DNA from: Naegleria gruberi
Lineage: Eukaryota
Length of the DNA stretch: 64,000 nucleotides
Strand: one strand, 5' to 3'
NCBI GenBank assembly: GCA_000004985.1
Contig: GG738903.1
Shown here piece by piece: positions 4,227-57,871 of this stretch. Every line of letters starts with the position of its first letter. The stretch's first letter is position 1. The notes below the pieces were generated by a model, which was not told the origin of the DNA, searched no databases, and worked only from the letters and a program-made list of their open reading frames with translations. A program made the translations under genes and the position numbers.

Positions 4227-4299
4227 GCCCGTCTAGCTCAGTCGGTAGAGCGCAAGGCTCTTAACCTTGTGGTCGTGGGTTCGACCCCCACGGTGGGCG
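4227..4299 (+). tRNA. tRNA-Lys (anticodon CUU)
   Basis: GCCCGTCTAGCTCAGTCGGTAGAGCGCAAGGCTCTTAACCTTGTGGTCGTGGGTTCGACCCCCACGGTGGGCG folds as a cloverleaf with A and B boxes, a 7-nt anticodon loop CTCTTAA and a 7-bp acceptor stem. It is near-identical to metazoan/fungal tRNA-Lys-CTT. A T-run lies 5 nt downstream. Confidence 0.9.
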
Positions 4300-7642: not shown

Positions 7643-9517
7643 TTATTTTACTTTTTTAATGAGTTTTAACAGATTTTCAATCTCTGACTCATTTTCAATA
7701 GCATCAATTGAACAATTATAATCATAATATAACCACACAACACCTCTCTCTCTAATAGATATATCCGATTGATAGAGATTTACACCTGAAGGAAACGAAT
7801 CATCTGGTGAGTCCTTTTTCCAATAGGTCTTATTGAGAGTTGCCAAAACCATGATAACAGATGCTCCTCCATAATTTTTGTTCTCATCTGAGAGTGTTAC
7901 CTTGAAATCAGACCATGTTGGTGGTCCATTATGATAAATGAATCGAAGGACGACATCTGGCTTTTGAATTTCTTGCAATGATTGAATATTGAGATTGAGG
8001 AATTGTTGATTGGCCTTTTCTTTGAGTTTCTTCTTGAAATTGCCAGAGATTCCTTCCTTTCTATCTGAAATTGCAACTTGAAAGGTTCTTTCTCTGATTA
8101 TCTCAATAGTATATTTTTGGGAGGTTGAAGGAGTTCTTGAATTCATTATTGATAGGACTGATTGACCAATGGTGGATGGTGTCGTGAAGGAAACCTTAAT
8201 GACTGATCGTTCAGGGATGAATTCCACCATGCATTCCATAGAGCTACTGGCAAAATGTTGTAGAACTGCTCTGACAGATGTCAAGTCAAGGAATTCAACA
8301 TTCTCATCATAAATGTCGCATATTTTAAATTCCAAATAGGTAAGAGTCTTCTCACGTAAAACCCATTTAGAATCTTGAATTTGCACATTCTCTGAGTTAA
8401 TAAGGGCCATCTTGGACCAGTTGACATCCTGACAATCAGCAGTAAATTCAACAGTTTTTTGTTGATCTCCAAACTTGAGCTGAAGCACTGCTTCCCCCAC
8501 AAACTGACATTTAAAGTCAATAACAAGATTATTATCCATAACTGAGACCTTACAATTCCATTCAGAATTTCCACATCTCACAATTGCCTTAATATCCTCC
8601 GCCTTAAACTGCTTGACTTGATGTGAATTGTTAATATTAACACAGGGGATGATAACTGAGCAGTCTTTTCCAGCTATACATCTCTTATTCCAGTTTGATT
8701 TGGAAATACTATTAGCTAAAGATAGTTCTCTATGGTTAAATGTCTTGACTTCCTTTAATAGAATGGTTCCCATGTATTCTAAAGAAAATTCGTATAATCC
8801 TTCGTTTTTGATACAGAAAGATCTGTTCCATTGCTTCCTTCTTTGTAAGCTTGATTGCAATACCAAATTAGATTTCTTTTCAAATGTTTCATTATGCATA
8901 TCAACACCACGAACTCGAATAATTAAATCACTTTCCTTCACGTTCAAATCTGTTTCGACAATAAAATTCACTGGATCATTGGTGTAAATTATTTGAGAAT
9001 GAGGTTCTATTCTTTTTACATGAACCTCTCCGATTCCAATTGATCTGGGAGGATCTTGAATTTTCTTTAATTCCAATTCAGATTTAGTTTGAATAATTGG
9101 CAATGTTTGAGTTGTTTGATTTTGAATCAGTGATGGCTTTTCAGAGTTCATTAATCCACTCTCTACAATTTTAATCATTTCACTTTTCATTGATTTTGAA
9201 ACTTGGTCAACAATATTATTCAACTGTTCCAATTGACTCATCGAAGTTGCATTCCACCAAAACGGTTTCATCTCAAACAATCGACTCAAATACATCAAAG
9301 CAGCTCCTTCCCTAGAAAGCTTAATCTGTTTAAATTCCAATCTGATTTGATCGACATTTGATCTTGAAAAAGAGACAGCCCATGGATAATTAGTGTCACC
9401 ATATTTGAATTGAAGTTCTAGAGCTTCTAATAAATCATCCTTTATGTTATTCATATGGACGAATTGGACTGCCAATTCATAGTTGAATGGAGTTGCAAAC
9501 TTGAATGATTGCAACAT
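7643..9517 (-). CDS. hypothetical 624-aa protein
   Basis: One continuous ORF starting at ATG 9517. It has Ig/filamin-like beta-rich stretches but no confident family assignment. Confidence 0.45.
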   Translation of the reverse strand: MLQSFKFATPFNYELAVQFVHMNNIKDDLLEALELQFKYGDTNYPWAVSFSRSNVDQIRLEFKQIKLSREGAALMYLSRLFEMKPFWWNATSMSQLEQLNNIVDQVSKSMKSEMIKIVESGLMNSEKPSLIQNQTTQTLPIIQTKSELELKKIQDPPRSIGIGEVHVKRIEPHSQIIYTNDPVNFIVETDLNVKESDLIIRVRGVDMHNETFEKKSNLVLQSSLQRRKQWNRSFCIKNEGLYEFSLEYMGTILLKEVKTFNHRELSLANSISKSNWNKRCIAGKDCSVIIPCVNINNSHQVKQFKAEDIKAIVRCGNSEWNCKVSVMDNNLVIDFKCQFVGEAVLQLKFGDQQKTVEFTADCQDVNWSKMALINSENVQIQDSKWVLREKTLTYLEFKICDIYDENVEFLDLTSVRAVLQHFASSSMECMVEFIPERSVIKVSFTTPSTIGQSVLSIMNSRTPSTSQKYTIEIIRERTFQVAISDRKEGISGNFKKKLKEKANQQFLNLNIQSLQEIQKPDVVLRFIYHNGPPTWSDFKVTLSDENKNYGGASVIMVLATLNKTYWKKDSPDDSFPSGVNLYQSDISIRERGVVWLYYDYNCSIDAIENESEIENLLKLIKKVK

Positions 9518-12420: not shown

Positions 12421-12690
12421 ACTGAATGTTGATCAATTCCAGTTCATACACAAGAGCATAACAATTGTTGTCATGTTGTTGTTGTGGAAAGGAACGTGTG
12501 TTAGGAGGTTTCGGTAAATTGTTGAAGATTGTTATTGTGGAAAGTCTACTATTTAGAAACAAACATTTCTTGTTAAAACTGAGACAGTTGTAATCATCTC
12601 CTTCCATATGAATGGCAATCTCGCGTTTTTTAAAAAGTGGATGCACCCAACAAATATGGTAAGGAAATTCGTAAGAAAGAAAAAAAGTAG

Positions 12691-12763
12691 TGGAGATGCG
12701 GGGTATCGATCCCCGTACCTCTTCCATGCTAAAGAAGCGCTCTACCATGTGAGCTACATCCCC
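12691..12763 (-). tRNA. tRNA-Ala (anticodon AGC)
   Basis: The reverse complement reads GGGGATGTAGCTCACATGGTAGAGCGCTTCTTTAGCATGGAAGAGGTACGGGGATCGATACCCCGCATCTCCA. The anticodon loop TTAGCAT gives AGC, a G3:U70 pair is present, and the T-arm GGGGATCGATACCCC matches eukaryotic tRNA-Ala. An oligo-T terminator follows on the minus strand (aaaaaaag on plus). Confidence 0.85.
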
Positions 12764-12905: not shown

Positions 12906-14285
12906 TTAATTCAAAAGGGAACAAATAATATTTGTAATAGTCTTCCCTCCATCAAAGTCAATGTCGTTTCTTTTGTTTTTCTGTTGTTGTGTTATCATAT
13001 TGTTGAGAACAGTGTTAGCTTTTTCAAACAGTGATGGAAGAGCATTAATAACCACATCTCCTTCTACCTTGGAAACACATGAATCTCCAATGTTTTCTAT
13101 TAAGGCCTTCTCCGTATAAGGGTGTTCTATCATACCATATCGTTCCAAATATAATGTTGGTATCTTGTGGAATAGAACTTCTGTTACAGTACCATATGAA
13201 GTTTTACCAACAAGAACATCAACAGCCAAAAGTAAATCTCTTGCAAAATCAATATTTTCCTTCTCAAGATCTAGGAATGAAAAATTGACAACATTTGGCA
13301 TCCTATTTTCTACAGAACTTCCACACATTACAATTACTATCCAATCGTCTGGAATGTTCCATTCCAATTGCTTTTCTTGAAGAAGGGTTGGTGAAGGAAA
13401 GCTTAACCCACCAAATGAAAACATCATAATCTTGTAATTCTTATTGGAAGGCATCTTGGATTTAGAAATAACCCAATCTTTCATATACTCTTTAGTGTAT
13501 TTTGTATTTTTAATAGTTGTCGTAATAGGCCAACTATTTTCTGTAGACTCGATAATTGTATCCGATCCAAATGGTAATTCGTTTGTAGAGTAAGGCAGTT
13601 GGATAAAAATGTCAGTCTTTCCATGTATAGAGTATAGAGATCTACATTGCTTTACCATGAGTTCCTTTTCTTCCTTTAACTTGGAATAGTTCACATCAAG
13701 TCCATCAATATTTCCAACAATTTCATCTGTACTCTTTGGAAGAGAAATGTGAGACATTGAATGTTCATAAATGTACTCCCAACACCAATTACTTATTCCA
13801 ATAGAGAGCGGCAGGCGACTTTCCAATCCATATTTTCTGTTGAGCCTCTTTGCCATTACTGGAGCAATTTCAGGAACATCCCACACAATTAGCTCAATCT
13901 GGTAAGGTTCCAGAAATTGTTCAATCTCACAAATCATTGAATTTTCAGTTGGAATTCCATTGTGATCCTGTTCATCCCCATACAAACATTCAAAGTGTTG
14001 ACTCCAATGTTTTTTCCATCGCTCAATTGTTTTACAAGGAGATGTTGATACAGAATTTTGTTCCTCAATCAATCCTACAGAAATCTTTGTTCCTAAAATT
14101 CTAATCTGTTGTTCTGGTATTTCCTGAAGTCTCTCCTTGAGGAAGAACCTATTCACTCCACTCACAATATGAAAGATAGCACTCGGGAAGTTTTTATGTA
14201 ATTCATTCAATACTGGAGCAAGCCTAGCAGTATGTCCAATTCCGTGATCCGATATAAAGACAGCAATATGGGAAATATTCATCAT
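12906..14285 (-). CDS. GT-B fold glycosyltransferase-like protein (459 aa)
   Basis: Starts ATGATG at 14285. N-terminal FISDHGIGHTARLAPV resembles the Gly-rich nucleotide-sugar-binding N-terminus of GT1/GT28 enzymes. C-terminal VLVGKTSYGTVTEVLFHKIPTLYL resembles the GT-B C-terminal donor-binding motif. Confidence 0.45.
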   Translation of the reverse strand: MMNISHIAVFISDHGIGHTARLAPVLNELHKNFPSAIFHIVSGVNRFFLKERLQEIPEQQIRILGTKISVGLIEEQNSVSTSPCKTIERWKKHWSQHFECLYGDEQDHNGIPTENSMICEIEQFLEPYQIELIVWDVPEIAPVMAKRLNRKYGLESRLPLSIGISNWCWEYIYEHSMSHISLPKSTDEIVGNIDGLDVNYSKLKEEKELMVKQCRSLYSIHGKTDIFIQLPYSTNELPFGSDTIIESTENSWPITTTIKNTKYTKEYMKDWVISKSKMPSNKNYKIMMFSFGGLSFPSPTLLQEKQLEWNIPDDWIVIVMCGSSVENRMPNVVNFSFLDLEKENIDFARDLLLAVDVLVGKTSYGTVTEVLFHKIPTLYLERYGMIEHPYTEKALIENIGDSCVSKVEGDVVINALPSLFEKANTVLNNMITQQQKNKRNDIDFDGGKTITNIICSLLN

Positions 14286-25393: not shown

Positions 25394-26738
25394 ATGTTCG
25401 ACAAGCCAACCCACACAATTTCACTGATCGGGCAAACAGGCAGTGGTAAATCAACACTTTTAGGTCAACTATTGTATCAGATGGGATATATTTTAGATGA
25501 ACAATTAGAAGAAATTTCAAAAACTGCCGATAAATTAGGAAAACCAAATTGTAAATATTCCTTCCTGGTCAACTCAACCAGAAAGGAGAGGGAATGTGCA
25601 TCAACAAGTCAATTATCATTTAGACAAGTGGAAACTAAAAATTATTTCTGTAATTTAATTGACACACCAGGTAGGAATTATTTGAATTTATTGAAACAAT
25701 CAAATTTTTGGAATATTGAAAGGAAGTGAAATTTATATGAAAAAAACAATTCGTGCCTTGGCAATTTCGAATACACTAATTGCAGTAATTGATCCGAGAG
25801 AAGTCGAATTCAAAAGGAGCATCAATCGGCTTGATGGAATATTGACACAGTACATGCTTTCTCCCATAGTTACCAGTTCACAAATTATTTGTTGTGTCAA
25901 TTTAATGGATCATCTAGAAATTAATTATTCAGAGCAAGTCTTTGTGAAAACAGTTAGTGAACTTTCAAAAATCTTGAAAAGAACAGGATCGTCTTCAGTA
26001 GATATCATTCCAATTTCTGCTTATTGTGGAGATAATATTGTGGAACTATCTGATAAAACACCATGGTATGAGGGTAAATGTCTGTTGGATGCTTTGAATT
26101 CATTGAAACCAACAGTAAATAATTTGGAACTAAGTTTAAGAATTCCAATTTTGGATGTTAAAAAAATAAGTGGAGTTGGAACAGTTGTTTATGGAAAAGT
26201 TGTAGCAGGGATACTAAAAATGGAATCAAAAATAGTATTGGCTAATTCTAATATTGAAAATGCAAGAATTGCATCTATTGAATCATTTGGAAAGCGATTG
26301 GAAGAAGCAAAATCTGGTCAACTGGTGGCTATCAACTTGCGTAATGTCTTACACAGCTCAATCAAATCAGGAGATGTAATATTAGAGGAAGGAAAATCTA
26401 CTGGTATGGTAACTCGCTTCTTTGAAGCAAATATTTTAAACATTGACCATCCAAAAGGCATTCATCCAAATTACCAACCTACAATTCAATTACAGGCTAC
26501 TCAAGCTAAATGTAAATTGGTTACTATTAAGGAAAGCTCTTGTCATAGGATTTTGAAGGAATATTTTCCCCCCTTTATTAAGAGAAACTATTTAGGAGTG
26601 GTTGAGTGTGAATTAGACAAAGCTTGTTATTTGGATACGGATGCATTTTGTAGATTTTTTATTAGAGATTTTAGGAAGGTGATAGGATTTGGCGCGATTA
26701 CTCGTGTTGGAGTTGAACAAGTTGAAAGTAATAAATAA
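25394..26738 (+). CDS. EF1A-family paralog with degenerate GTPase motifs (about 430 aa), two exons
   Basis: Model join(25394..25670, 25723..26738). N-terminus MFDKPTHTISLIGQTGSGKST aligns to EF1A [22 protein letters not shown]. G3 is DTPGG (EF1A DAPGH) and G4 is NLMD (EF1A NKMD). The intron GTAGGA...AAAG is 52 nt. Domain II (ISGVGTVVYGKVVAGILK) and domain III (FFEANILNIDHPKGIHPNYQP...; FCRFFIRDFRKVIGFGAI) are present. Confidence 0.7.
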
Positions 26739-28316: not shown

Positions 28317-28629
28317 CTCGGTTGTCTATCTATTTTTTTTGTTGTTGTAATTTTAGAATGAAGTTTACAAAAATGTTGTGCTGTTGGCAATTAATTCAGT
28401 ATGGAATGAGGAATAATAGTTGTAAAGTAACAAAATAATTAGTCCCAAATAGATGGTAAATAGAATGAATTGTTACGTCCCAATCGCATAGAAAATTTAA
28501 TGTTCGATTTATTTGAGCTATTAAATAATCCGCCAAGCGCAAGCACAAATCCAAATGGAGACATTTCAGAAATACTATTTAATTTCTAATGTTTCACAAC
28601 TATTCGAAACAAACAACAATCAAAACAAA

Positions 28630-29178
28630 ATGTCTAAAACTCTTGTATTCTTCTTCCACGAAAGATTTGAAAGCTCTCAAGCCAATCGTTCCATGATAAA
28701 GGCCTTGTCAACTCTTGACAATATTGAAATTGTAAACATGCATCAAATATTTACTGAAAATGGTAACAAGTTTGATTCCAATTCAGATATTCAAAGACTT
28801 TTGAATGCAGACAGAATTATCTTTCAATTTCCAATCCAATGGTACTCAATGCCAGCTTTTATGAAACAATGGATTGATGAAACCTTTACTAGAATGTACT
28901 ATATTCGATATGGAGAGGAAGGATTGAAAATGGAGGGAAAGAAATTTATGATATCTGTTACTGCTGGTAATTTTGAGGAGGCATACACTCCACAAGGTCA
29001 GAATTTGATTCCACTCGATGACTTGTTGAATCCATTGAAAGCTCTCGCTCACAGATGTAAATTACAATGGAGTGAACCATTCATTTCCTATCGTGCCAAT
29101 AAGAAATCAGTTGAAGAATTGGAAGAAACTGCCGAACAATATCGTCAATTTGTTTCCAAATGGATGGAAAAGTATTAA
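28630..29178 (+). CDS. flavodoxin-like fold NAD(P)H:quinone oxidoreductase family protein (KefG/KefF/MdaB-like)
   Basis: MSKTLVFFFHERFESSQANRSMIKAL...ADRIIFQFPIQWYSMPAFMKQWIDETF...GKKFMISVTAGN...CKLQWSEPF matches the bacterial KefG/'general stress protein 14' pattern (FxHP, Q-F-P-x-x-W-x-x-x-P-A-x-L-K-x-W-x-D). ATG at 28630. Confidence 0.6.
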   Translation: MSKTLVFFFHERFESSQANRSMIKALSTLDNIEIVNMHQIFTENGNKFDSNSDIQRLLNADRIIFQFPIQWYSMPAFMKQWIDETFTRMYYIRYGEEGLKMEGKKFMISVTAGNFEEAYTPQGQNLIPLDDLLNPLKALAHRCKLQWSEPFISYRANKKSVEELEETAEQYRQFVSKWMEKY

Positions 29179-29312: not shown

Positions 29313-29431
29313 GGCTACGGCCATATCACGATGAATGCACCTCATCCCGTCCGATTTGAGAAGTTAAGCATCGTCGAGCCACATCAGTACTGAGGTTGGA
29401 GACAACTTGGGAACCTGTGGTGCTGTAGTCT
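29313..29431 (+). rRNA. 5S ribosomal RNA gene
   Basis: GGCTACGGCCATATCACGATGAATGCACCTCATCCCGTCCGATTTGAGAAGTTAAGCATCGTCGAGCC...GGTGCTGTAGTCT carries the conserved 5S helices and loops (CCCGTCCGAT..GAAGTTAAGC; 3' GGTGCTG). It is about 119 nt and is followed by a TTTTT Pol III terminator. Confidence 0.85.
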
Positions 29432-29477: not shown

Positions 29478-32400
29478 CTAAGGTTTTCGTTTTTTGGAAC
29501 ACTCATGAGTTGTGAAAATTTGTTTCCTCAAACATTTTTCAATTTCTATGGGCAACTTATCCAAGCTTGACATTGCGTCTGCATGCAACCCCGGCCCAAT
29601 AAACGGTTCCAAGAATCTATAGATTGTTTGTTGATTCTCTTTGAATATTGTTGCATAACTGAGAATTGAAATTTTGAATAGATTATTGTCTGTCATGTGT
29701 TGAACTACTTCACGCAAGCTTTCTATCCTAAATCTAATCTTAAAACACGGTGAAAACCCACATCTTGCAACATGTCCTTGCACATCCATATAAATTTCAT
29801 CATTTTTCCTGATTCTGAAAATGCGTCTAATGAAATAGTCATAAATCATGCCAGTGACTGCATTGTCCTTGAATGTTTGAGATTTTGCTTCCAAGTCTTG
29901 AATTGAAAAATTGTCAGGCATTCTATGCACTGATTTTGGAATGAGTATGAAACCAGTGTAATTACTAATTGGGCAATATTCAATGATACTAGAGTTATAG
30001 TCAATTTTTGGTACTAATGCTCCATTGTTTTCATTGTTTTGATTATTGAGGAAGGAATTCTTGAAAATTTTCATAAAATTATTCAATACAAAAGCATGGT
30101 GAGAATATCTTTGAAAGCTCAGTATCACATTTTCTCCATTAGCAAGTTCCAATTCAATAGTTGAATAATCTTCAGATTTAGTTATTAAATAAATACCAGG
30201 TTTGACTTCTTTCATTGTAAACGGTATCAAGAATGGAAAATCAATTTGTATTGATTGCACCGTATCAAGATAATCCAAAAATGAGCTCTGATATCTTATT
30301 ATTTTGTAATATTCAGTGTCAATCATTTTCAAATATTTCATTAGGATTAGTTTGCAGACTGCATAGGAAGATTCCACTTTCAGAAGCCAAAATAATTGAT
30401 TTCCAAATAATTTTGATTTCAGACATCTATTCTTGAGAAGGTATTCAGCTAAAACTCCATATTCATTCTCGTATTTGATACAATGAACAAGAAATGGTAA
30501 AATATCAGAAAATAAATCATCTGATGTTTCTTCTAGGCATTTGATTAATACCAGTTTCGAAAATATTCCAATATTCTCGGAGAAGAGTGATATCATCTCA
30601 ATAATATTTGGTTTCTTCCATTTTCCTAATGTTTGGTTAGCTTCATAAATGATCATTGGGGTTTCGAATGAAATTCCATAAAGAAATGGAACAAAATGCG
30701 AAGGCTCATTCATATCCCACTTATTTCCTTCCAAATAAGTTTCTAAATTTGAATCACTCACATTGTTTTGAATCAAAGATAATGGATGGTTTGGTATTCT
30801 ATCAAAATCATATTCAATAATTGAATCATAAGTTGGAAACTCAATGTCTAGAGAAATTTGTGAGTTTTTTGCACCTTTTGCAAAAAGCCTGACATTCCCT
30901 TGAAGTAATTTCATATTTGAATCAAAAACTGGACATTCAAAGTGATCTTTAAAAACAACTTTTCTTGGTAATCCAGTTTCAGAACACTCTGTTTCCATAA
31001 CAAGTGAAAAATCGATGCAATAATCACATGATATTTCTGAAATTAGTGAATCAAATAAAACCTCTTCATTCCAATCTAAGCAACTCAAACTTTGAGGAAA
31101 GATATTTCTTGTTTTGTGAATTTCTTTCTTATTATTCCTTCCAACTATGGAATATTCAATTGTAAAGGAAAGAGGTTTTTGGTATTTAAATTCAAAATCC
31201 TTGAATGTGAGACCACAGAGTTGATTAATCCTCATTTTCATTCTCTCATTGATTTGGAAAGATGATACAGTATCATTTGTTTGATTGGTTTCTAATATTT
31301 TAATATCCGAAAGTGAATCAAGGAATGCAACATTACTTTCAAAATCCGCATTGGCAGTATTTACAGATTTTCCAATATCAATAAATCTAATTCTATCCCT
31401 TTTTAGCCCTATTCCACAAACAATCTCACTCTCATGATCTTTCAAACGGCTGTTATTCATGGATAGATAAATCAATGATGGCATATTCTCAATAATGGAA
31501 ATTGCTTTCGTACAAAGACGATTTTCAGAAATATTTAATCGTTTCAAATTCTTCCATTCATATTCCTCAAATATTGAATCAATACCACAGTCTGGAACGT
31601 CAAGACTGGTCAATTGTTCCAAATCACAAATATTCTTGATTAAATGAAAATCAATGAGACCAAATGTTGAAATTTTTAGTCTTTTCAGCTTGAGAGGTTT
31701 GAATTCTGTGATAGTTTCCAAGAAATCCTTCCAAATTGATTTACTTGAAATGGTAAGGCTGACTAAATTATTGAATTCGCATTTTGCAAATTCTGAAAAG
31801 TTTTCAATATTTCCTTGTTCAAGTATAAATTCTTCTAAATTATTAGAAATTCTATTAAGGTCTTTTAAATTTACACTCAATTTTCTCAAATTACTGTATT
31901 CCAAATGTGTCAATTTGGTCATAGAATATGACCAACAGTCAAATTTAGTTCTCATTTCCAAGGAATAAAGTTGTGGCTTAATGGATAGTCCAGCAACTTC
32001 TTCTACTTCGTTAACGGATGAATCTACTAACAAATTTACCAAATTAGGCAAACTCATTTTACTATTCATCAATTTATAATATTCTTGGTTATCAATTATT
32101 GATTCCATAATATCCAAAGATTTCAATTTGTAAAAATGTGAAATACTATTAAATTTAAATCCTTCCCTATCACGACCTTGAATATCTCTAATTGTTAAAT
32201 GCTCCAAATTATGCACAAGTCTTGGGGAATTTTTCATAATTTCAAGATCGCTATTCGAAAATGGTCCCCAAATATTCGAAATATTATAAAAATTAATTGA
32301 ATTGTTTTTAATTGCAATGAGGAAATGATTCACTGCTGGATCAACATAGGCTCCCTGGGAGAAACACATTTTCCTACTGGCCAAGATTTTAACTTGAATT

Positions 32401-32531
32401 TTGTTCAGAGTTGATGCTAACCTCCATTTCGAACAAACTAAGGAAATTATTCGAATGATGAATTTTGAATGAAGGAAGGAAAATATTTCCACCAACATTT
32501 CGGATGGAATGTCGTTTAGCTTTTCATACAT
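29478..32531 (-). CDS. F-box / LRR protein fused to a PI3K-type helical (accessory) and divergent catalytic-like region (1017 aa)
   Basis: ATG at 32531. N-terminal F-box: IPSEMLVEIFSFLHSKFIIRIISLVCSKWRLAS. The middle holds L..L.L..C.I-type LRRs. The C-terminal third contains LPFLVHCIKYENEYGVLAEYLLKNRCLKSKLFGNQLFWLLKVE, which matches the PI3K accessory/helical signature (VQALKYE...LA.FLL.RAL.N..IGH.FFW.LRSE). A region of the size expected for the catalytic domain follows, with no intact DRH/DFG motifs. Confidence 0.55.
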   Translation of the reverse strand: MYEKLNDIPSEMLVEIFSFLHSKFIIRIISLVCSKWRLASTLNKIQVKILASRKMCFSQGAYVDPAVNHFLIAIKNNSINFYNISNIWGPFSNSDLEIMKNSPRLVHNLEHLTIRDIQGRDREGFKFNSISHFYKLKSLDIMESIIDNQEYYKLMNSKMSLPNLVNLLVDSSVNEVEEVAGLSIKPQLYSLEMRTKFDCWSYSMTKLTHLEYSNLRKLSVNLKDLNRISNNLEEFILEQGNIENFSEFAKCEFNNLVSLTISSKSIWKDFLETITEFKPLKLKRLKISTFGLIDFHLIKNICDLEQLTSLDVPDCGIDSIFEEYEWKNLKRLNISENRLCTKAISIIENMPSLIYLSMNNSRLKDHESEIVCGIGLKRDRIRFIDIGKSVNTANADFESNVAFLDSLSDIKILETNQTNDTVSSFQINERMKMRINQLCGLTFKDFEFKYQKPLSFTIEYSIVGRNNKKEIHKTRNIFPQSLSCLDWNEEVLFDSLISEISCDYCIDFSLVMETECSETGLPRKVVFKDHFECPVFDSNMKLLQGNVRLFAKGAKNSQISLDIEFPTYDSIIEYDFDRIPNHPLSLIQNNVSDSNLETYLEGNKWDMNEPSHFVPFLYGISFETPMIIYEANQTLGKWKKPNIIEMISLFSENIGIFSKLVLIKCLEETSDDLFSDILPFLVHCIKYENEYGVLAEYLLKNRCLKSKLFGNQLFWLLKVESSYAVCKLILMKYLKMIDTEYYKIIRYQSSFLDYLDTVQSIQIDFPFLIPFTMKEVKPGIYLITKSEDYSTIELELANGENVILSFQRYSHHAFVLNNFMKIFKNSFLNNQNNENNGALVPKIDYNSSIIEYCPISNYTGFILIPKSVHRMPDNFSIQDLEAKSQTFKDNAVTGMIYDYFIRRIFRIRKNDEIYMDVQGHVARCGFSPCFKIRFRIESLREVVQHMTDNNLFKISILSYATIFKENQQTIYRFLEPFIGPGLHADAMSSLDKLPIEIEKCLRKQIFTTHECSKKRKP

Positions 32532-32991: not shown

Positions 32992-33260
32992 TGTTACATG
33001 TGAATGGAAATCCACACTTATTTCCACAATTACATTAATTTTTTATGGGTTATCTTTTTATCGAGGACGCTTTACAGTAAATAAACTGTAAATGTGTTAT
33101 TGTAAAGTACTTTGATTTAACTGACTCACACGATATTGTAAACCACTTCCCAAACTGTGGGAAAAATCACATGTATTGGGATGTTTCATCTCACATACTA
33201 ATAACTAAACTTCACCAAACAAAACAAAAAAAATCACACAAGAACAAACAATTAGAAACA

Positions 33261-34014
33261 ATGGGAAACGTTTTTGATAAGATTCCTATTGAAGACATTC
33301 AGTCAGGAGTTACTGGAGCCATCAATGCTATTACAACAGGTACTCACCCAAGTACTAGAGACGAAACTACGTACAATTCTGTGAAAAAGTGGATTCAAGA
33401 TTGTGATGTAAAAACCTGCAAGCTATTCCACGATGCTTTTGCAATGCCAACTGATGCAAGTGGTGCTATCATTTATAAGAAAGCTGTCGTTTTCACCAAG
33501 TCAATTGATGTCAATTTGACAGATCTCTTGGTAGATTTGTTAGAATTATTCAACAGTAAGAGTTATCAAGCTCTTGCCATTTCTGCTTTGAGAACAGTTG
33601 CCAAGAATCTCAAGATGAGTATTTCCACAGGTGAAAATAACATGCATGATGACAGATCTCAATAATGGAATGATCATGTGTGTTGCCTCCACTGTTTACG
33701 AAAGTAAACTTGATGCTACAATCTTCAAAACAGGTGTCCTGTGTACTGGTACCATTATTAAGGTTGTTCCACAATCCATGTTCAGAATTGGTTTGATTAA
33801 TGCCATGATGAGAACTAGTTTGGAAAGTGTCAGAAGACAAACTGTTGAAATTTTGCATGCCAAGTATATGATTGCAGAGCAGGATATCAAAGAAAACTTT
33901 ACATTATATAATAAGGTATTCATTGAGACAGAGGCTATTTATAATGATTATATTAAAGAAGAATTGAAAAGACATAAAGCAAAGGAAGAAAACAAGTTAG
34001 AAGCAGAACAATAA
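33261..34014 (+). CDS. hypothetical protein (about 216 aa), probable two exons
   Basis: ATG at 33261 (MGNVFDKIPIED...). Frame-0 and frame-1 ORFs overlap near 33631–33665. Tentative model join(33261..33630, 33734..34014) uses a G|GTGAAA donor, a 103-nt intron and an AACAG acceptor. No domain assignment. Confidence 0.35.
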
Positions 34015-34157
34015 ATTAACATAGCAGTTGGAGATTAAGATGAGGTTGGTGAATCCAATAAACTGTAAGCATAGTTAATGGGTATTAGTTTATTATTATT
34101 GAGGGACTAATTAAATTGATTGACTTGTGAGATCACTTTTCACAAGATCAAAAAAAA

Positions 34158-35210
34158 ATGGGCAATTCACAACCGGCATCAAATCTTGATGGCCAGACAA
34201 CGTATGATCGTTCAACGGGTGAACAAATAGTAAATTTTAATTTATTCTCCGATGATGAATGTAAGGAGAAAACCCATGAAGAAATTGAAGCAAGTCAAGT
34301 TGATTATTTCTCTTCGGATCAGAGATTGGATGAATTAAAAACAATTTTGGGAGAAGACATTGTTAATAACCAGTTGGAATACTATAAGAATGTTACAAAG
34401 GTAACTGAAGAGTGTTTGCCAGTGATGGCAATCACCAAAGATTATCCATTTATGGACGAGTATATAGGTCATTATTTGGTGGCATGTTTAATGAGGAAGA
34501 GTGAAAGTTTTGCTAAACATTCAAAGCCATTCAAGTGTTTGGATGATGGATATTTGGATGAAATTTTAGATGTGAATACTTTAAAGAAATATCCAACCAA
34601 AATTCTGAAACAGAAATTTGAAGAGTTTCATCAGGATTTCCAGTATTGCATGTCAGTGCCAAATTCAAATGAATATAGCAGAGTGATGGAGACTGTATCT
34701 TTGGAAACTGTTTTCAAAGAACCTTATTCTGCAATCCTTTCTCAACCAAATCAAATAGAAATTATCAAGTCTAGATTTTTACCAAAGCAAACTACTTTGG
34801 AAGTCAAGAAAATTGAGCACGAGCCGATGGAACCTTATATTTATAACCCAAAAACAGATACAGAAGAGGATTTTGAAAGAAAGTTAATAGCACTTTCACA
34901 AACTGATTTTTTGAAACAAGATATTGAGCTTGTGAAGGAGTGTTATCAAAAGGAGCAAGAATCGACAAGTGCCGATTGTTTTGGGAAATACAATTCTCTT
35001 TTGAGTATTTCTGAACTCGTTCTTTGCAAGAAGGAAATTCTCACACAATCACCACAATTAACATTTCCAAATATTGAAGACTCAGCACTTTTGGATTTTA
35101 AAAAAGATGGATCTTGTTCAGGAGTTCTTTTGAAAAATCATATTGAAAAACTATTTCCAAATATGCCAAAATTTCACTATCTATACTTTTATAACAAAGA
35201 TAATAATTAA
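34158..35210 (+). CDS. hypothetical 350-aa protein
   Basis: ATG at 34158 (MGNSQPAS...). Continuous ORF with acidic segments. No recognised domain. Confidence 0.45.
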   Translation: MGNSQPASNLDGQTTYDRSTGEQIVNFNLFSDDECKEKTHEEIEASQVDYFSSDQRLDELKTILGEDIVNNQLEYYKNVTKVTEECLPVMAITKDYPFMDEYIGHYLVACLMRKSESFAKHSKPFKCLDDGYLDEILDVNTLKKYPTKILKQKFEEFHQDFQYCMSVPNSNEYSRVMETVSLETVFKEPYSAILSQPNQIEIIKSRFLPKQTTLEVKKIEHEPMEPYIYNPKTDTEEDFERKLIALSQTDFLKQDIELVKECYQKEQESTSADCFGKYNSLLSISELVLCKKEILTQSPQLTFPNIEDSALLDFKKDGSCSGVLLKNHIEKLFPNMPKFHYLYFYNKDNN

Positions 35211-52243: not shown

Positions 52244-52295
52244 GCCCGTCTAGCTCAGTCGGTAGAGCGCAAGGCTCTTAACCTTGTGGTGGGCG
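52244..52295 (+). pseudogene. truncated tRNA-Lys(CUU) copy lacking the T-arm (21-nt internal deletion)
   Basis: GCCCGTCTAGCTCAGTCGGTAGAGCGCAAGGCTCTTAACCTTGTG|GTGGGCG is identical to the tRNA-Lys at 4227–4299 except that GTCGTGGGTTCGACCCCCACG (T-stem/loop, B box) is missing. The same 3' flank ATTC and a T-run follow. Confidence 0.7.
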
Positions 52296-52417: not shown

Positions 52418-53722
52418 ATGAAGAAGCGAATGAGAGAAGAATTTGATCGTAATTCAATCATGATGGAAGGAAAGGAGTACGATAACTTATTCCCCGATGA
52501 TATTTGTGAAGAAATTATGCAATGGCTAGCTTGGAAAGAAGTTTTATTGAATTGTTGCCTAATTTCCAAGCAATGGTTTACAATTGCAAAATCAAGATAT
52601 AGAGCAAGTATTCAACTCACATATGGTCAAGAAAAATTATGGCTATGTTTTATTAAAGAGCAGCAGGAAGGAATTTCTCGTATATTTAATATTGGTGTTG
52701 ATTCTTTCAGAGTGGTGGGAAGTTACTTTATAGATAGCATTAATGCAGAGATTATTAGCAAATCGTTTCCTAATTTGAAGCGATTGGAAATTGGTGATAA
52801 CCAACAATTTGGAGATTGTGGAGCAGAGTCGATAAGTAAGATTAAGACTTTGACGAGCTTGAATGTTTTAGATTGTGGAATAACTTCAAAAGGAGCAGAA
52901 TTTATTGGATTGTTAAACGGGCTGACCTATCTTAATATTGGAAATAACAAGATTATGGATAGTGGAATGAAATTTATTGGAAAATTGAGTTCACTGAATG
53001 TTTTGCAGATTGGTAGTACTGAGATAACTAGTGAGAGTTTTAAATTGGTGGGCTGTATGAAGGGATTAACATCTCTTTCTATTTATTCAAATCCAGTCAC
53101 AATAGAAGATGCAAAATCCATAAGCTCAATACACGGCCTTAAATCTCTAAATATCAGCAATACAGGAATTTCTGTGGAAGGATTGAAATATTTAAGTGCA
53201 CTGACTTTACTAACGAACTTGTCTTTGGCCAAGAATAACATTACAAATGAAGGGCTTTTATCAATATCCCAAATGAAGCAAATAACTAAACTCTTTCTTC
53301 AACATAATGTAATAGACTGTGATGGAGCTCAATTATTAAGTACAATGACCAATTTGAGATTATTAAATATTAGTCAAACCAAAATCACCACTGAAGGAAT
53401 CAAGCACATTACCTCCTTGAAGAACATTACATCTTTGAATATTTCGATTAATCAGTTAAATGATGAAGCTTTAAAATTAGTTAGTTCAATGAATCAATTG
53501 ACCAATCTCAGTACACACAATAACAAGCTAACCAGCGAAGGCGCAAAACATATAAGCCAATTGAATAATCTAACAGAACTCAACATTTCCTCAAATCCTG
53601 TAAGAATCGAAGGTGCCAACTATTTAAATCAAATGACAACACTCAAAATAATTAATGTTTCAAACTGTAGAACTGGAATCTTCCAATGGAACAATAATAT
53701 TGATCTACAATTTGATGACTAG
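52418..53722 (+). CDS. F-box-like / RNI-type leucine-rich-repeat protein (434 aa)
   Basis: ATG at 52418. F-box-like FPDDICEEIMQWLAWKEVLLNCCLISKQWFTIA, followed by about 14 LRRs of the form L..L..L.I..N.I..EGAK.IS. Confidence 0.6.
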   Translation: MKKRMREEFDRNSIMMEGKEYDNLFPDDICEEIMQWLAWKEVLLNCCLISKQWFTIAKSRYRASIQLTYGQEKLWLCFIKEQQEGISRIFNIGVDSFRVVGSYFIDSINAEIISKSFPNLKRLEIGDNQQFGDCGAESISKIKTLTSLNVLDCGITSKGAEFIGLLNGLTYLNIGNNKIMDSGMKFIGKLSSLNVLQIGSTEITSESFKLVGCMKGLTSLSIYSNPVTIEDAKSISSIHGLKSLNISNTGISVEGLKYLSALTLLTNLSLAKNNITNEGLLSISQMKQITKLFLQHNVIDCDGAQLLSTMTNLRLLNISQTKITTEGIKHITSLKNITSLNISINQLNDEALKLVSSMNQLTNLSTHNNKLTSEGAKHISQLNNLTELNISSNPVRIEGANYLNQMTTLKIINVSNCRTGIFQWNNNIDLQFDD

Positions 53723-53802: not shown

Positions 53803-55164
53803 ATGCCAAACATCAACATTCGACTTCGACAAGCCAAAAACTTGGCAGCAAAAGACCTTTCCAAAACGTCGGACCCATTGGTAATTTGCACAGTTAACAA
53901 CAAGAAATCATTCAAGACAGAACCAATCATGATGGACTGCAATCCAAACTGGGAAACGCACAAGAAACCAATTAAACATGAATTTACGGTGAATTTTGAC
54001 AAATTAACAGACGTGATACAATTACAAGTGGAAGACTATAACATCTTCTCTAAAAACAAACCAATAGGAAGTTGTCAAATACCTCTTCAATTTTTAGAAA
54101 AATCAAAACCAATGGAATTTACATTTGATTTACGTGATACGAAACAAGCAATTGCTGGACAATTGGTAGTTTTATTGGAAGCAATGGATTTTGGAATTGT
54201 TCCTTCAACAACAACAGTGCCTATGTATCCTCTTCCGACACAGCAACCATATTCTCCTCCTATTTCTGTTGTGCAGACACAGCAACCACAACAACCACAG
54301 CCACAGATACAGCCACAACAGCCACAACAGCAACTAGTTGGAAATTTACAAAGGAATGACAGTAGTCCAACACTTGCTGCACTCAGACATGGATCTTTCC
54401 TGACCAATAATAATACAGGTGTTGGTGGTCAATCACCTATTCAACAGCATCCATTGCAAACTTCTCAGAGTTTTATCATGCAAAAAACGACAATGGATCA
54501 ACAACAATCATCAATGATGATGGGCACAGGAAGTAATAGTGTATATGGAATGCCACTACCACAACAATATGTCAATAATGGAATGCAACAACAGCAACAA
54601 CAGCCATTGACACATTCCAATTCGTTCATTAATTATTCACAACAACCACAACAACAACAACCACCATCAATGTATAATAATTCTCAGCAAGGAGTTAATA
54701 TAATTTCACCAAGTGCTAATAATAATAATAATATTGGAACTCAATATACTCCTCCACAACAGTATAATCAACAGTATAATCAGGGAATTGTTAATAGTCC
54801 AGGAAGTATTTCATCTCCTTCGAATTTACAACCAATGAATAATTCATCATCTTATAATTTAATGAATAATTGTCAACTACAAGGAAATGTACAAGCTCAA
54901 CAAATTCAACAAAATGATAATAGTGTATCTACTCCAAGAAAGGCATTGCCTACATTACCAGTTAAACAAGGAAGTACAAGTCCTCAAACAATTGGTCAAC
55001 CAACAATTGATTCACAAATTCCAAAACCAAATGAGCTACCTCAATCGAATCAATGGACTGGTGTTGTCACTGATCAATACATTGATTATGTAGTTTCCCA
55101 ACTTCCAATTCCACTCTCCATACCAGAATATTACCAACGTTTTGTAAAGCCATTTAAAATATAA
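53803..55164 (+). CDS. C2-domain protein with long Q/N/P-rich low-complexity C-terminus (453 aa)
   Basis: ATG at 53803. The N-terminal 100 aa fit a C2 fold (IRLRQAKNLAAKDLSKTSDPLVICTV...NPNWE...FTV....DVIQLQVEDYN...IGSCQIPL). The rest is poly-Q/PQ/N repeats. Confidence 0.6.
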   Translation: MPNINIRLRQAKNLAAKDLSKTSDPLVICTVNNKKSFKTEPIMMDCNPNWETHKKPIKHEFTVNFDKLTDVIQLQVEDYNIFSKNKPIGSCQIPLQFLEKSKPMEFTFDLRDTKQAIAGQLVVLLEAMDFGIVPSTTTVPMYPLPTQQPYSPPISVVQTQQPQQPQPQIQPQQPQQQLVGNLQRNDSSPTLAALRHGSFLTNNNTGVGGQSPIQQHPLQTSQSFIMQKTTMDQQQSSMMMGTGSNSVYGMPLPQQYVNNGMQQQQQQPLTHSNSFINYSQQPQQQQPPSMYNNSQQGVNIISPSANNNNNIGTQYTPPQQYNQQYNQGIVNSPGSISSPSNLQPMNNSSSYNLMNNCQLQGNVQAQQIQQNDNSVSTPRKALPTLPVKQGSTSPQTIGQPTIDSQIPKPNELPQSNQWTGVVTDQYIDYVVSQLPIPLSIPEYYQRFVKPFKI

Positions 55165-56221: not shown

Positions 56222-57871
56222 TTATTTATTCCAATAACTTAATAATTCTTCCATTTTACCATACGAGTTGATGCTAACCTTCCTTAATTTGGCAAAAGTT
56301 GGATTTGTTTGCAAAGCTTTCACACATGCTTTTGATGCAGAAACGGAATGTGCATCAATTTTTCTCAAATTTACCAAATTGGTACACTTGGAAACAAGGT
56401 TTTCATACAAATTGATGCCATCCATATTGCAACATTGACAAATTAATTCCTTCAAATTGGAAAAGACTGGTGAATCGAAAATGATTTCGAATAAAGATTC
56501 TAAACAAGCCAAATCAGAAATATCCAAATATTCCAAGTTAGATAAGGTAGGAGCACTCAAAAAGGTTTCATAGGAACTCTTCAATAAGTTCTTGTTTTCA
56601 CAATATCTAGCACTTGAATGAGAGATAGTGAGCCTCTTTAGATTTGGGCAATGATAAGAGAGTGAAGGAAAGGTTGAAATGTAGGTACTTTTCAAATTCA
56701 AATCAGTGAGTGAGCTTTGAGAGTTTGGTGGACATTGTACAACCTCTGAATTTTCTTGTCTGTAGTGTGCAGTAGGACCTCCAAAAATGTTTGCATTTCC
56801 CCAATTAAAGTTTTCAGCTTTGAGTGTTGTGAGTTTTGGTAAACTTGGAGAAACAATCAAATTTACAAATTCACTATTTGGCATGGAACAATAGGAAAGA
56901 TCAAGTCTAGTAATATTGGTTAAACTTGTCCAAAAGTTTGGGTAAAGAGTCAATCTATGATTTCTAATACCCAAATATTCGAGATTGACCTTATCTTTCA
57001 ACAATTCGGTTAGTCCATAGTCTTCATTTCCAGATTGAGAATGTTGTGCTAATTCTAAATGAGTGAGTTGATTCAAATATTTGGATTCTGAAATGATTTG
57101 CAAAAATGATTTTGGAAAGTCGTGGCTTGTCAAGTCTAATTTTTTAACACTGGACATGAAACTGCTATTGAGTAATTCCTTTGCCTCCTTTTCTGTAAAC
57201 TTTTTCACATTGGCCAAGTTTAATTTTGTCAAATTCTTCATTGAACATTTCTTTAAATTCTTCACACTTTGAATTCCCATATTATTGGATGCTAAATTCA
57301 ATTTTGTCAAATTCTCCAACTTTTTACAATTAGAAAGTACTTGAAATGTATCAACACCAGCAGAAAACAATGATAATGAAGTGACATTCTTGATAAATGG
57401 TCCATCTAACAAACTGGTAATCTCTTCCTTTCCAACTTTGACTGACTTTCGTCTACTATAACTTGCAGTACCTAATCTCACTTTAAAACTAAGTCTTTTC
57501 AAGGTTTCTCTCCACATCTTGGATACCAATTGACAGGAATTCATCAGAACTGGTATATCCAAGAATTGATAAATGTGAAATAAATTATCCGAATTTAATT
57601 GATCGGACGAAACTCTTCTTCTATGCACATCCAACTCCTTCAAGAATTCGTTAATATTACCAACAAATTCATCAATCATACAATTATTATTTACAAAATA
57701 ATGATGACCAACTAATTTCACCTTTTTAGAAAGTGACAGTAATTGATCATTGACATTGGTCATTTCATTAAATAAAGTACCATCAATATTTTCATCAACA
57801 TGTTCATCAACATTTGCAAGTTGTTGATCTGATGTTTCTTCGTGTTTTCTCTTCTTGCTTTGTTTTGGCAT
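56222..57871 (-). CDS. F-box-like / LRR protein (549 aa)
   Basis: ATG at 57871. F-box-like LFHIYQFLDIPVLMNSCQLVSKMWRETL, followed by cysteine-containing LRRs (L..L.L..C..I.D..). Confidence 0.55.
   Translation of the reverse strand: MPKQSKKRKHEETSDQQLANVDEHVDENIDGTLFNEMTNVNDQLLSLSKKVKLVGHHYFVNNNCMIDEFVGNINEFLKELDVHRRRVSSDQLNSDNLFHIYQFLDIPVLMNSCQLVSKMWRETLKRLSFKVRLGTASYSRRKSVKVGKEEITSLLDGPFIKNVTSLSLFSAGVDTFQVLSNCKKLENLTKLNLASNNMGIQSVKNLKKCSMKNLTKLNLANVKKFTEKEAKELLNSSFMSSVKKLDLTSHDFPKSFLQIISESKYLNQLTHLELAQHSQSGNEDYGLTELLKDKVNLEYLGIRNHRLTLYPNFWTSLTNITRLDLSYCSMPNSEFVNLIVSPSLPKLTTLKAENFNWGNANIFGGPTAHYRQENSEVVQCPPNSQSSLTDLNLKSTYISTFPSLSYHCPNLKRLTISHSSARYCENKNLLKSSYETFLSAPTLSNLEYLDISDLACLESLFEIIFDSPVFSNLKELICQCCNMDGINLYENLVSKCTNLVNLRKIDAHSVSASKACVKALQTNPTFAKLRKVSINSYGKMEELLSYWNK

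What the first reader, a model, noticed from the sequence alone, without database searches (positions are those of the whole stretch)
29478..32531. F-box/LRR protein carrying a PI3K-type helical signature and a degenerate catalytic-like tail
One uninterrupted 1017-codon ORF combines an N-terminal F-box, a leucine-rich-repeat block and a C-terminal region. That region reproduces the PI3K accessory-domain signature (…CIKYENEYGVLAEYLLKNRCLKSKLFGNQLFWLLKVE…) almost residue-for-residue. It is followed by a segment of the size expected for the catalytic domain, but without intact DRH/DFG motifs. I do not know of an F-box::PI3K-like architecture. It suggests an SCF substrate adaptor built on a catalytically dead lipid-kinase scaffold, or a PI3K-like pseudokinase targeted for regulated turnover.
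Basis: partly seen in the sequence, partly recalled or inferred. Interest (0 to 1): 0.7.

Follow-up and report, generated by a model that had tools for sequence, protein, structure and literature searches.

The report
F-box/LRR protein with dead PI3K core
A Naegleria gruberi gene fuses a ubiquitin-ligase adaptor (F-box plus leucine-rich repeats) to the non-catalytic core of a class-I-type PI3-kinase whose kinase region has decayed beyond recognition, an undescribed but species-restricted architecture hidden by truncated or split public gene models.

Summary
The 1017-codon ORF is real (window 29478-32531, minus strand). It is Naegleria gruberi NAEGRDRAFT_52708, published as a 963-aa "predicted protein" that starts at Met55 and so lacks the F-box.

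Confirmed:
- F-box, above Pfam's cut-off and conserved in two paralogues.
- LRR solenoid, at fold level only.
- PI3K helical domain (PI3Ka, 50 bits against a cut-off of 31).
- C2 plus helical align to class-I-like PI3Ks at 99.2% hhalign probability (E 2e-19).

Not confirmed: the 257-residue tail shows no detectable similarity to a PI3K catalytic domain. Pfam and PDB profile searches find nothing, hhalign gives P 0.35, shuffled controls score as well, and AlphaFold confidence is below 40. DRH, DFG and GDDLRQ are absent from all three paralogues. "Kinase remnant" rests on position and colinearity only.

An exhaustive search of 1.84 billion proteins, plus viral and metagenomic DNA scans, found this family only in N. 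gruberi. It occupies three loci with the same domain order, two of them split by annotation.

Most likely it is an FBXL-type SCF substrate receptor carrying a catalytically dead PI3K-derived binding or membrane-targeting module. I rate it a new variant of known kinds, of moderate interest, with function untested.

The parts
29478..32531 (-). Complete coding sequence, 1017 codons plus stop. This is N. gruberi NAEGRDRAFT_52708 (EFC39004.1 / XP_002671748.1 / D2VW23).
   Evidence: ORF listing. 100% identity to the public 963-aa model over residues 55-1017. One stop in this frame against 48-117 in the other five.
32370..32531 (-). Codons 1-54, missing from the public gene model, which starts at Met55. 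This segment contains the F-box.
   Evidence: BLASTP of the ORF against P0001. An in-frame TAA lies 18 nt upstream of Met1. P(no stop by chance) is 0.0095. The segment is 38-50% identical to the N-termini of paralogues P0004 and P0008.
32409..32519 (-). F-box, residues 5-41 (IPSEMLVEIFSFLHSKFIIRIISLVCSKWRLAS).
   Evidence: PF12937 scores 26.3 bits against 24.3; PF00646 scores 19.3 against 20.5. Fifteen positions are invariant across the three paralogues. The paralogue profile hits only F-box proteins in PDB, with the Skp2 F-box of the Skp1-Skp2 complexes on top at E 1e-4.
31374..32216 (-). Leucine-rich-repeat solenoid, about residues 106-386.
   Evidence: Pfam LRR families are all below cut-off; the best is LRR_14 at 18.3 against 40. 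PDB sequence hits to the ANP32 LRR are only E 0.02. The AlphaFold model shows a regular strand/helix alternation over residues 110-386 at pLDDT 55-86. All Foldseek hits are LRR proteins: InlA at E 1.2e-5, NLRC4, TLR8, Rad7, Dia2 and D3.
30822..31241 (-). PI3K-type C2 beta-sandwich, about residues 431-570.
30267..30749 (-). PI3K helical (PIK accessory) domain, about residues 595-755.
   Evidence: PF00613 scores 50.1 bits against 31. The PDB profile search is led by p110gamma at E 8.5e-7. hhalign gives 99.2% probability, E 2e-19. This is the best-modelled segment, at pLDDT 70-82.
29481..30251 (-). C-terminal tail, residues 761-1017. It occupies the position of the kinase domain, shows no detectable kinase similarity and has no catalytic residues.
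   Evidence: There are no Pfam or PDB hits. hhalign gives P 0.35 and performs no better than shuffles. pLDDT is below 40 from residue ~808. It is the least conserved segment among the paralogues, at 22-34%. It is nevertheless kept open: P(no stop) is 2.4e-10. Colinear best paths pair LSFQRYS-HHAF with IMFKAGDDLRQD and FIRRIF--RIRKNDEIYMDVQGH with YVLGIGDRHNDNIMLTKDGN.

Best explanation
The gene encodes an FBXL-type F-box protein. An N-terminal F-box is followed by an LRR solenoid, and the C-terminal 590 residues descend from a class-I/II-type PI3K catalytic subunit.

The PI3K's adaptor- and Ras-binding N-terminus has been replaced by the F-box/LRR unit. The C2 and helical domains are retained and conserved. 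The former kinase domain has lost every catalytic residue and has drifted beyond sequence recognition.

Inferred mechanism:
- The F-box docks the protein on Skp1 in an SCF ubiquitin ligase.
- The LRR and/or the dead PI3K core act as non-catalytic recognition modules. In active PI3Ks, C2 is the membrane- and regulatory-subunit-binding element, and the helical domain is the scaffold contacted by regulators.
- These modules would bring the ligase to membranes or to partners of genuine PI3Ks.

Shown here: the domain composition and order, the loss of catalytic motifs, the existence of three paralogous loci, and the restriction to N. gruberi. Inferred: Skp1 binding, ligase function, the kinase origin of the tail, and what is recognised.
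For: - Domains: F-box and PI3Ka are above Pfam cut-offs. The F-box profile hits Skp2, FBXL17, FBXO44 and no non-F-box proteins. The LRR fold is supported.
- Catalytic loss: DRH, DFG and GDDLRQ are absent in all three paralogues, and the corresponding positions are not conserved among them.
- Conservation pattern: F-box 38-50%, C2 39-47%, helical 41-48%, LRR 32-36%, tail 22-34%. This fits selection on the F-box and the C2/helical core, with relaxed constraint on the tail.
- Paralogues: the same domain order occurs at two further loci. P0008 and P0003 have consecutive accessions on one 348-kb scaffold, and P0004 and P0002 are consecutive on one 245-kb scaffold.
- Coding status: the frame is kept open in 30% GC DNA.
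Against: - There is no expression or protein evidence.
- The public model omits the F-box.
- LRR Pfam scores are sub-threshold.
- The F-box helices are modelled at low confidence, pLDDT 35-44.
- The tail's kinase ancestry has no statistical support.
- The family is confined to one species and evolves fast, which also fits weak or no function.
- The two paralogues are annotated as split genes, and I could not read their DNA.
- The structure model of the C-terminal half used an alignment containing two real PI3Ks. Its resemblance to PI3Ks is therefore partly circular.
Confidence: 0.6

Rival explanations
1. The C2 and helical domains descend from a PI3K, but the last 257 residues are not a kinase remnant. 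On this reading the ancestral kinase domain was lost, and an unrelated or newly evolved sequence sits in its place. This rival concerns the tail only and is compatible with the SCF-adaptor reading.
For: No method detects kinase similarity: Pfam at E<=10 on the whole protein and on three isolated tails, a PDB profile search, hhalign at P 0.35, and a shuffle control in which 34 of 60 shuffles reach the real score. A global alignment scores lower than the local one. The tail is about 50 residues shorter than real kinase domains. pLDDT stays below 40 even though real PI3Ks were in the alignment.
Confidence: 0.3
2. The F-box does not recruit substrates. Instead it ties a PI3K-derived pseudoenzyme to Skp1/SCF for its own regulated turnover or for a non-degradative Skp1-dependent role. 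The functional unit would be the dead PI3K core, acting as a decoy or scaffold in phosphoinositide signalling.
For: C2 and helical are the best conserved parts after the F-box. These are the surfaces through which active PI3Ks bind regulators (established knowledge of p110/p85 and Vps34/Vps15 complexes). The LRR block is weakly conserved and sub-threshold in Pfam.
Against: An F-box followed directly by an LRR solenoid is the standard layout of substrate receptors, and Foldseek hits include Dia2 and D3. Nothing here distinguishes self-turnover from substrate recruitment.
Confidence: 0.15
3. The family is evolutionary debris. It would be a recent, species-specific domain shuffle that is drifting towards loss, with no selected function. 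The window copy would merely be the one that has not yet been interrupted.
For: The family is found only in N. gruberi among 1.84 billion representative proteins and in viral and metagenomic DNA scans. The paralogues are only 33-43% identical. The two other loci are annotated as fragments that begin inside domains. There is no literature or expression evidence.
Against: A 1017-codon open frame in 30% GC DNA has a chance probability of about 1e-38, and the tail alone 2.4e-10. At 33-43% identity the paralogues are old, yet they keep 15 invariant F-box positions and long invariant runs in C2 and helical, such as SEISCDY, CPVFDS and GNQLFWLLK. That pattern is domain-wise purifying selection, not neutral decay.
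Confidence: 0.12
4. The ORF is an artefact of reading two neighbouring genes, or a misassembly, as one. On this view an F-box/LRR gene and a separate PI3K-like gene exist, as the public annotation of the two paralogous loci suggests.
For: The paralogues are annotated as pairs of adjacent genes. The public model of the window gene is also shorter than the ORF.
Against: In the window there is no stop codon anywhere between the F-box and the C-terminus. The public model itself spans LRR, C2, helical and tail in one protein. The two paralogue pairs are split at different places, about residues 143/319 and 415/477 of the window protein. Both splits fall inside folded domains, the LRR and the C2. 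That points to truncated models, not a conserved gene boundary.
Confidence: 0.03

Closest known systems
FBXL-type F-box proteins (Skp2/FBXL1, FBXL17, plant D3/MAX2, yeast Dia2). Some carry an extra domain, such as FBXL5 (hemerythrin) or KDM2A/B (JmjC, CXXC, PHD).
   Same: An N-terminal F-box is followed by an LRR solenoid. The F-box profile of this family matches Skp2 and FBXL17, and the LRR model matches LRR receptors including Dia2 and D3. Known FBXL members also combine the F-box/LRR unit with an accessory domain (review PMC7729025, listed; the examples given are my own knowledge).
   Different: The accessory module here is a 590-residue C-terminal PI3K-derived core, which I found neither in the databases searched nor in the papers searched. 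The LRRs are too divergent to pass any Pfam LRR cut-off. Skp1 binding is untested.
Class I (and class II) PI3K catalytic subunits, p110alpha/beta/gamma/delta and PI3KC2alpha
   Different: There is no adaptor-binding or Ras-binding domain; the F-box/LRR unit takes that place. No PI3_PI4_kinase domain is detectable, and the ATP-binding lysine, DRH and DFG are absent. The tail is shorter, at 257 against about 305 residues.
TRRAP/Tra1, the catalytically dead member of the PI3K-related kinase (PIKK) family
   Same: Same principle, from my own knowledge: a member of the PI3K/PIKK superfamily that has lost its catalytic residues and serves as a protein-interaction scaffold.
   Different: It belongs to a different branch (PIKK with HEAT/FAT repeats, not C2/helical). 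It is conserved across eukaryotes, its kinase fold is clearly retained, and it is not linked to an F-box. No sequence relation was found here.

Membership tests
F-box proteins (SCF substrate receptors) | F-box motif recognised by a curated profile | tested here: met
   PF12937 F-box-like scores 26.3 bits against a cut-off of 24.3, at residues 5-39. PF00646 scores 19.3 against 20.5, just below. A profile of the three paralogue N-termini hits only F-box proteins in PDB, with the Skp2 F-box at E 1e-4.
F-box proteins (SCF substrate receptors) | The F-box segment is really translated (start codon upstream of it) | tested here: inconclusive
   The public model starts at Met55. In favour of Met1: it is the first ATG after an in-frame stop, P(no stop) over codons 1-54 is 0.0095, and there are 15 invariant residues across the paralogues. 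No transcript data were available.
F-box proteins (SCF substrate receptors) | Binds Skp1 and assembles with Cul1/Rbx1 | not testable with these tools
   This needs pull-down or two-hybrid experiments, or a complex prediction with N. gruberi Skp1.
FBXL subfamily (F-box + LRR) | LRR repeats recognised by sequence profiles | tested here: not met
   Every Pfam LRR family is below its cut-off; the best is LRR_14 at 18.3 against 40. A simple LRR motif count gives 5 against a shuffle mean of 2.0, sd 1.3.
FBXL subfamily (F-box + LRR) | LRR solenoid fold following the F-box | tested here: met
   The AlphaFold model shows regular strand/helix repeats over residues 110-386 at pLDDT 55-86, pTM 0.59. All Foldseek PDB hits are LRR proteins, best E 1.2e-5, with 300-380 aligned columns. 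Model confidence is moderate.
PI3K catalytic subunits | PIK helical (accessory) domain | tested here: met
   PF00613 scores 50.1 bits against 31. Paralogues score 47.2 and 66.1 bits. The PDB profile hit to p110gamma has E 8.5e-7.
PI3K catalytic subunits | PI3K-type C2 domain before the helical domain | tested here: met
PI3K catalytic subunits | PI3_PI4_kinase catalytic domain | tested here: not met
   There is no hit at E<=10 on the whole protein or on the isolated tails of three paralogues. The tail profile finds nothing in PDB. hhalign gives P 0.35, and 34 of 60 shuffles score as well.
PI3K catalytic subunits | Catalytic residues: ATP-binding Lys (IFKxGDDLRQD), DRH catalytic loop, DFG | tested here: not met
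   The strings are absent from all three paralogues and present in P0005 and P0016. Aligned positions read LSFQRYS-HHAF / LIYYSNSPDIY / LEYSPLD, and FRIRKN / FNSNSI / FESSSP.
Class I PI3K | Adaptor-binding and Ras-binding domains N-terminal to C2 | tested here: not met
   There are no such Pfam hits. Residues 1-430 are F-box plus LRR, leaving only about 45 residues between the LRR and the C2.
Pseudokinase derived from a PI3K | Kinase fold retained without catalytic residues | tested here: inconclusive
   Catalytic residues are absent, but the fold of residues 808-1017 is unresolved at pLDDT below 40. Only the order of secondary-structure elements and colinear low-confidence alignments fit.

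The most novel reading that the evidence does not exclude
This would be the first pseudoenzyme derived from a class I/II PI3K. Hard-wired to an SCF ubiquitin ligase, its dead C2-helical-(kinase) core would mimic an active p110. It would capture PI3K regulators or activators at the membrane and have them ubiquitinated. That would be a decoy-type negative feedback on phosphoinositide signalling, invented in Naegleria.
Probability: 0.12. Interest if true: 0.7.

Novelty: new variant of a known kind. Interest (0 to 1): 0.42.

Why it matters
If it is functional, this would be an example of a lipid kinase recycled into a non-catalytic recognition module of a ubiquitin ligase. It would also be a class-I-type PI3K pseudoenzyme, a category I found in neither the databases nor the papers searched. 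That would give a handle on which PI3K surfaces (C2, helical) carry regulator binding independently of catalysis.

There is also a practical point about annotation. The three N. gruberi loci are annotated so that the architecture is invisible: one model is truncated before the F-box and two are split. Domain-architecture surveys would therefore have missed it.

The weight of the finding is limited. The family is confined to one free-living amoeba species in everything searched, it evolves fast, and there is no expression or functional evidence.

Tried and rejected
- Bacterial or viral origin of the window: rejected. The window has tRNA-Ala(AGC), a lone 5S rRNA gene and a 100% match to N. gruberi. 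The viral contig scan found no relative.
- Word-indexed protein searches with the full protein, the C-terminal half and the family alignment returned only N. gruberi proteins and two weak LRR/F-box hits.
- Retrieving the DNA of the paralogous loci failed. The N. gruberi assembly is not in the contig index, so I could not tell whether the split models reflect introns, frameshifts or gaps.
- The metagenome DNA scan with family-specific peptide patterns gave 266 pattern matches, none of them a relative.
- Detecting a kinase domain in the tail failed by every route: Pfam on the whole protein and on isolated tails, a PDB profile, hhalign in local, greedy and global modes, and a column-shuffle control.
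- AlphaFold of residues 431-1017 left the tail unresolved even with real PI3Ks in the alignment. The AFDB fold library was unavailable.
- Class III (Vps34) origin: not favoured. The best sequence matches are class I p110gamma and p110alpha, then class II, and the nearest full-length relatives carry class-I-like N-termini.
- Local repeats or a mobile-element context around the gene: only short chance-level matches.
- A cluster of related genes in the window: none. The neighbours are unrelated.
- Literature: no paper mentions the gene identifiers. Neither the PI3K evolution study (PMC4617754) nor the ciliate phosphoinositide-kinome study (PMC3823935) mentions an F-box in its text, and the former does not describe inactive members either.
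Full report
**What is there.** Window 29478-32531 holds, on the minus strand, one ORF of 1017 codons. The other five frames of the same stretch carry 48-117 stop codons. With this base composition (30% G+C) an open frame of that length has a chance probability of about 1e-38. The window is eukaryotic: it has a tRNA-Ala with anticodon AGC and a solitary 5S rRNA gene. The ORF is 100% identical to a Naegleria gruberi protein, NAEGRDRAFT_52708 (EFC39004.1, XP_002671748.1, UniProt D2VW23), named only 'predicted protein'.

**The start codon.** The public model is 963 aa and begins at Met55 of the ORF, so it lacks the first 54 residues, which contain the F-box. Four observations argue that Met1 is the true start:
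- Met1 is the first ATG after an in-frame TAA 18 nt upstream.
- The chance of 54 stop-free codons is 0.0095.
- The segment matches Pfam F-box-like from profile position 1.
- It is 38-50% identical to the N-termini of two paralogues, with 15 invariant positions: P, E, EIFSFLH, KF, S, VC, W.

No transcript data were available, so this point stays inferred.

**Domains, N to C.**
1. F-box, residues 5-41. PF12937 scores 26.3 bits against a cut-off of 24.3, and PF00646 scores 19.3 against 20.5. A profile of the three paralogue N-termini hits only F-box proteins in PDB. The F-box of Skp2 from the Skp1-Skp2 complexes is on top at E 1e-4, followed by FBXO44, FBXL17, FBXO42, FBXO6, Dia2 and FBXW7.
2. 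LRR block, about residues 106-386. All Pfam LRR families are below their cut-offs, and a simple motif count is only weakly enriched. An AlphaFold model built on a six-sequence alignment shows a regular strand/helix alternation over residues 110-386 at pLDDT 55-86, with pTM 0.59. Every Foldseek hit in PDB is an LRR protein: internalin A at E 1.2e-5, NLRC4, TLR8, designed LRRs, and the receptor subunits Rad7, Dia2 and D3.
4. PI3K helical domain, about residues 595-755. PF00613 scores 50.1 bits against 31, E 3e-13. The best PDB sequence matches are p110gamma (E 8.5e-7), then p110alpha and PI3KC2alpha. This is the best-modelled part, at pLDDT 70-82.
5. A 257-residue tail, residues 761-1017.

A profile of the three paralogues' C-terminal halves aligns with four full-length class-I-like PI3Ks at 99.2% probability, E 2e-19. 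The block covers protein residues 458-738 against PI3K residues 329-659, which is C2 plus helical.

**The quoted signature.** The 37-residue stretch starts at residue 684 and is 35-49% identical to genuine PI3Ks. It is clearly the PIK-domain motif, but 'almost residue-for-residue' overstates it.

**The tail.** The claim of a 'degenerate catalytic-like' region was tested in several ways, and none gave a signal:
- No PI3_PI4_kinase hit at E<=10 for the whole protein or for the isolated tails of the three paralogues.
- A tail-only profile finds nothing in PDB.
- hhalign of the tails against four PI3K kinase domains gives P 0.35.
- 34 of 60 column-shuffled tails score at least as well.
- Forcing a global alignment lowers the score from 157.7 to 134.6, so the tail contributes negatively.
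- AlphaFold leaves residues ~808-1017 below pLDDT 40 even with two real PI3Ks in the input alignment.

DRH, DFG and GDDLRQ are absent from all three paralogues and present in genuine PI3Ks.

Four things still speak for a kinase origin:
- Position: the tail directly follows the helical domain.
- Colinear best paths from two programs. LSFQRYS-HHAF pairs with IMFKAGDDLRQD, and FIRRIF--RIRKNDEIYMDVQGH pairs with YVLGIGDRHNDNIMLTKDGN.
- The order of modelled elements: three strands, a long helix, then a helical region.

The model and the fold hits are partly circular, because real PI3Ks were in the alignment. I rate a kinase origin at about 0.7 and treat it as inference. The residues at the would-be catalytic positions differ among the paralogues, so residual activity is very unlikely.

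**The family.** An exhaustive HMMER scan of 1.84 billion representative proteins gave only 18 hits at E<=1e-3. Four are N. gruberi paralogue fragments:
- P0003 (EFC40945.1, 694 aa, named 'phosphatidylinositol 3-kinase') covers query residues 319-976.
- P0008 (EFC40946.1, 136 aa) covers residues 5-143.
- P0004 (EFC37601.1, 450 aa, 'F-box domain-containing protein') covers residues 5-220.
- P0002 (EFC37602.1, 529 aa) covers residues 485-927.

Consecutive accession numbers and identical scaffold lengths show that P0008 and P0003 are neighbours, and so are P0004 and P0002. N. gruberi therefore has three loci with the same domain order.

The two annotated pairs are split at different points, about residues 143/319 and 415/477 of the window protein. 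Both splits fall inside folded domains. That points to truncated gene models, not a conserved two-gene arrangement. I could not read their DNA to confirm this.

All other hits are either ordinary LRR proteins matching residues ~100-375, or full PI3Ks matching only residues ~593-760. Scans of viral and metagenomic DNA found no relatives. No protein outside N. gruberi shows the fusion.

**Conservation pattern.** Identity of the window protein to its paralogues is 38-50% in the F-box, 32-36% in the LRR, 39-47% in C2, 41-48% in helical and 22-34% in the tail. Long invariant runs such as SEISCDY, CPVFDS and GNQLFWLLK survive at an overall identity of 33-43%. This fits purifying selection on the F-box and on the C2/helical core, with relaxed constraint on the tail. 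It argues against simple decay.

**Most likely mechanism.**
- Shown: an F-box/LRR unit occupies the place of the adaptor- and Ras-binding domains of a class-I-type PI3K. C2 and helical are retained, and the catalytic residues are gone.
- Inferred from established knowledge of SCF ligases: the F-box binds Skp1, and the protein acts as a substrate receptor.
- Inferred from established knowledge of p110/p85 and Vps34/Vps15 complexes: C2 and helical are the surfaces that bind membranes and regulatory partners. The dead core is therefore best seen as a binding or targeting module.
- Open: which partner is recognised, and whether recognition is through the LRR, the PI3K core or both.

Rivals, with my confidence in each:
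- The tail is unrelated to kinases (0.3; compatible with the main reading).
- The F-box governs the protein's own turnover, not substrate recruitment (0.15).
- The family is drifting debris (0.12).
- The ORF is really two genes (0.03).

**Comparison with known families.** It works like an FBXL-type F-box protein with an accessory domain. It passes the F-box test and the LRR fold test, but not the LRR sequence-profile test. It is not a PI3K enzyme: it meets the helical and C2 criteria and fails the catalytic-domain, catalytic-residue and ABD/RBD criteria. The nearest conceptual parallel for a dead member of the wider superfamily is TRRAP/Tra1, which is unrelated in architecture (my own knowledge).

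Neither the PI3K evolution study (PMC4617754) nor the ciliate phosphoinositide-kinome study (PMC3823935) mentions an F-box in its text, and the former does not describe inactive members either. No paper cites the gene identifiers.

**Surroundings.** The neighbours are unrelated: an RCC1-repeat protein, a flavodoxin-fold reductase, a DUF676 esterase, CTP synthase, and Kelch, TPR, C2, LRR and dynamin-like proteins. There is no repeat or mobile-element signature around the gene.

**Verdict.** This is a new variant of known kinds and is restricted to one species. Its architecture has been hidden by the existing annotation. Interest is moderate.

Noticed in passing
window 29313-29431 (+): A complete, solitary 5S rRNA gene (Rfam 105 bits) ends 47 bp from the stop codon of the F-box/PI3K-like ORF, in convergent orientation, and is followed by a T-run. 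The 3' UTR of the protein gene would have to overlap or abut it.
   Followed up: partly
window 32370-32531 (-): The public N. gruberi gene model (XP_002671748.1, 963 aa) starts at Met55 and omits the conserved F-box, so the database entry shows only a PI3Ka domain.
   Followed up: yes
other N. gruberi scaffolds (P0004+P0002; P0008+P0003), not in the window: Two paralogous loci are annotated as adjacent gene pairs whose models begin or end inside the LRR and C2 domains. These are probably mis-split single genes. One fragment is named 'phosphatidylinositol 3-kinase' although it lacks a kinase domain.
   Followed up: partly
window 4227-4299 (+), 12690-12763 (-), 60423-60493 (-), 52244-52295 (+): There are three dispersed tRNA genes: Lys-CTT, Ala-AGC and Gly-TCC. 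A fourth, 52-nt tRNA-like match (Rfam, 36.7 bits) was not called by ARAGORN and may be a fragment or an atypical tRNA.
   Followed up: no
window 25716-26738 (+): This ORF has EF-Tu domains 2 and 3, and a GTPase domain that starts only at profile position 78. That suggests an eEF1A/eRF3/HBS1-like gene whose first exon lies upstream, across an intron.
   Followed up: no
window 28555-29178 (+): A flavodoxin-fold (Flavodoxin_2, 134 bits) NAD(P)H-quinone-reductase-like gene lies between the RCC1-repeat gene and the 5S rRNA gene. This family is commonly bacterial, and its origin was not examined.
   Followed up: no
window 52418-53722 (+), 53803-55164 (+), 56222-57871 (-): Two further LRR proteins and a C2-domain protein lie about 20 kb away. 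They pass Pfam LRR and C2 cut-offs, unlike the divergent LRRs of the gene studied. No F-box was detected in them at E<=1e-4.
   Followed up: no
window 33171-35210 (+) and 7643-9517 (-), 12906-14285 (-): Several sizeable ORFs have no Pfam match: 164, 127 and 350 aa upstream of the gene, plus 624 and 459 aa elsewhere. The three upstream ones partly overlap and may be exons of one gene.
   Followed up: no
window 31654-31968 (+): A 104-codon ORF runs antisense inside the LRR-coding part of the gene. It is most likely a chance open frame in AT-rich DNA.
   Followed up: no
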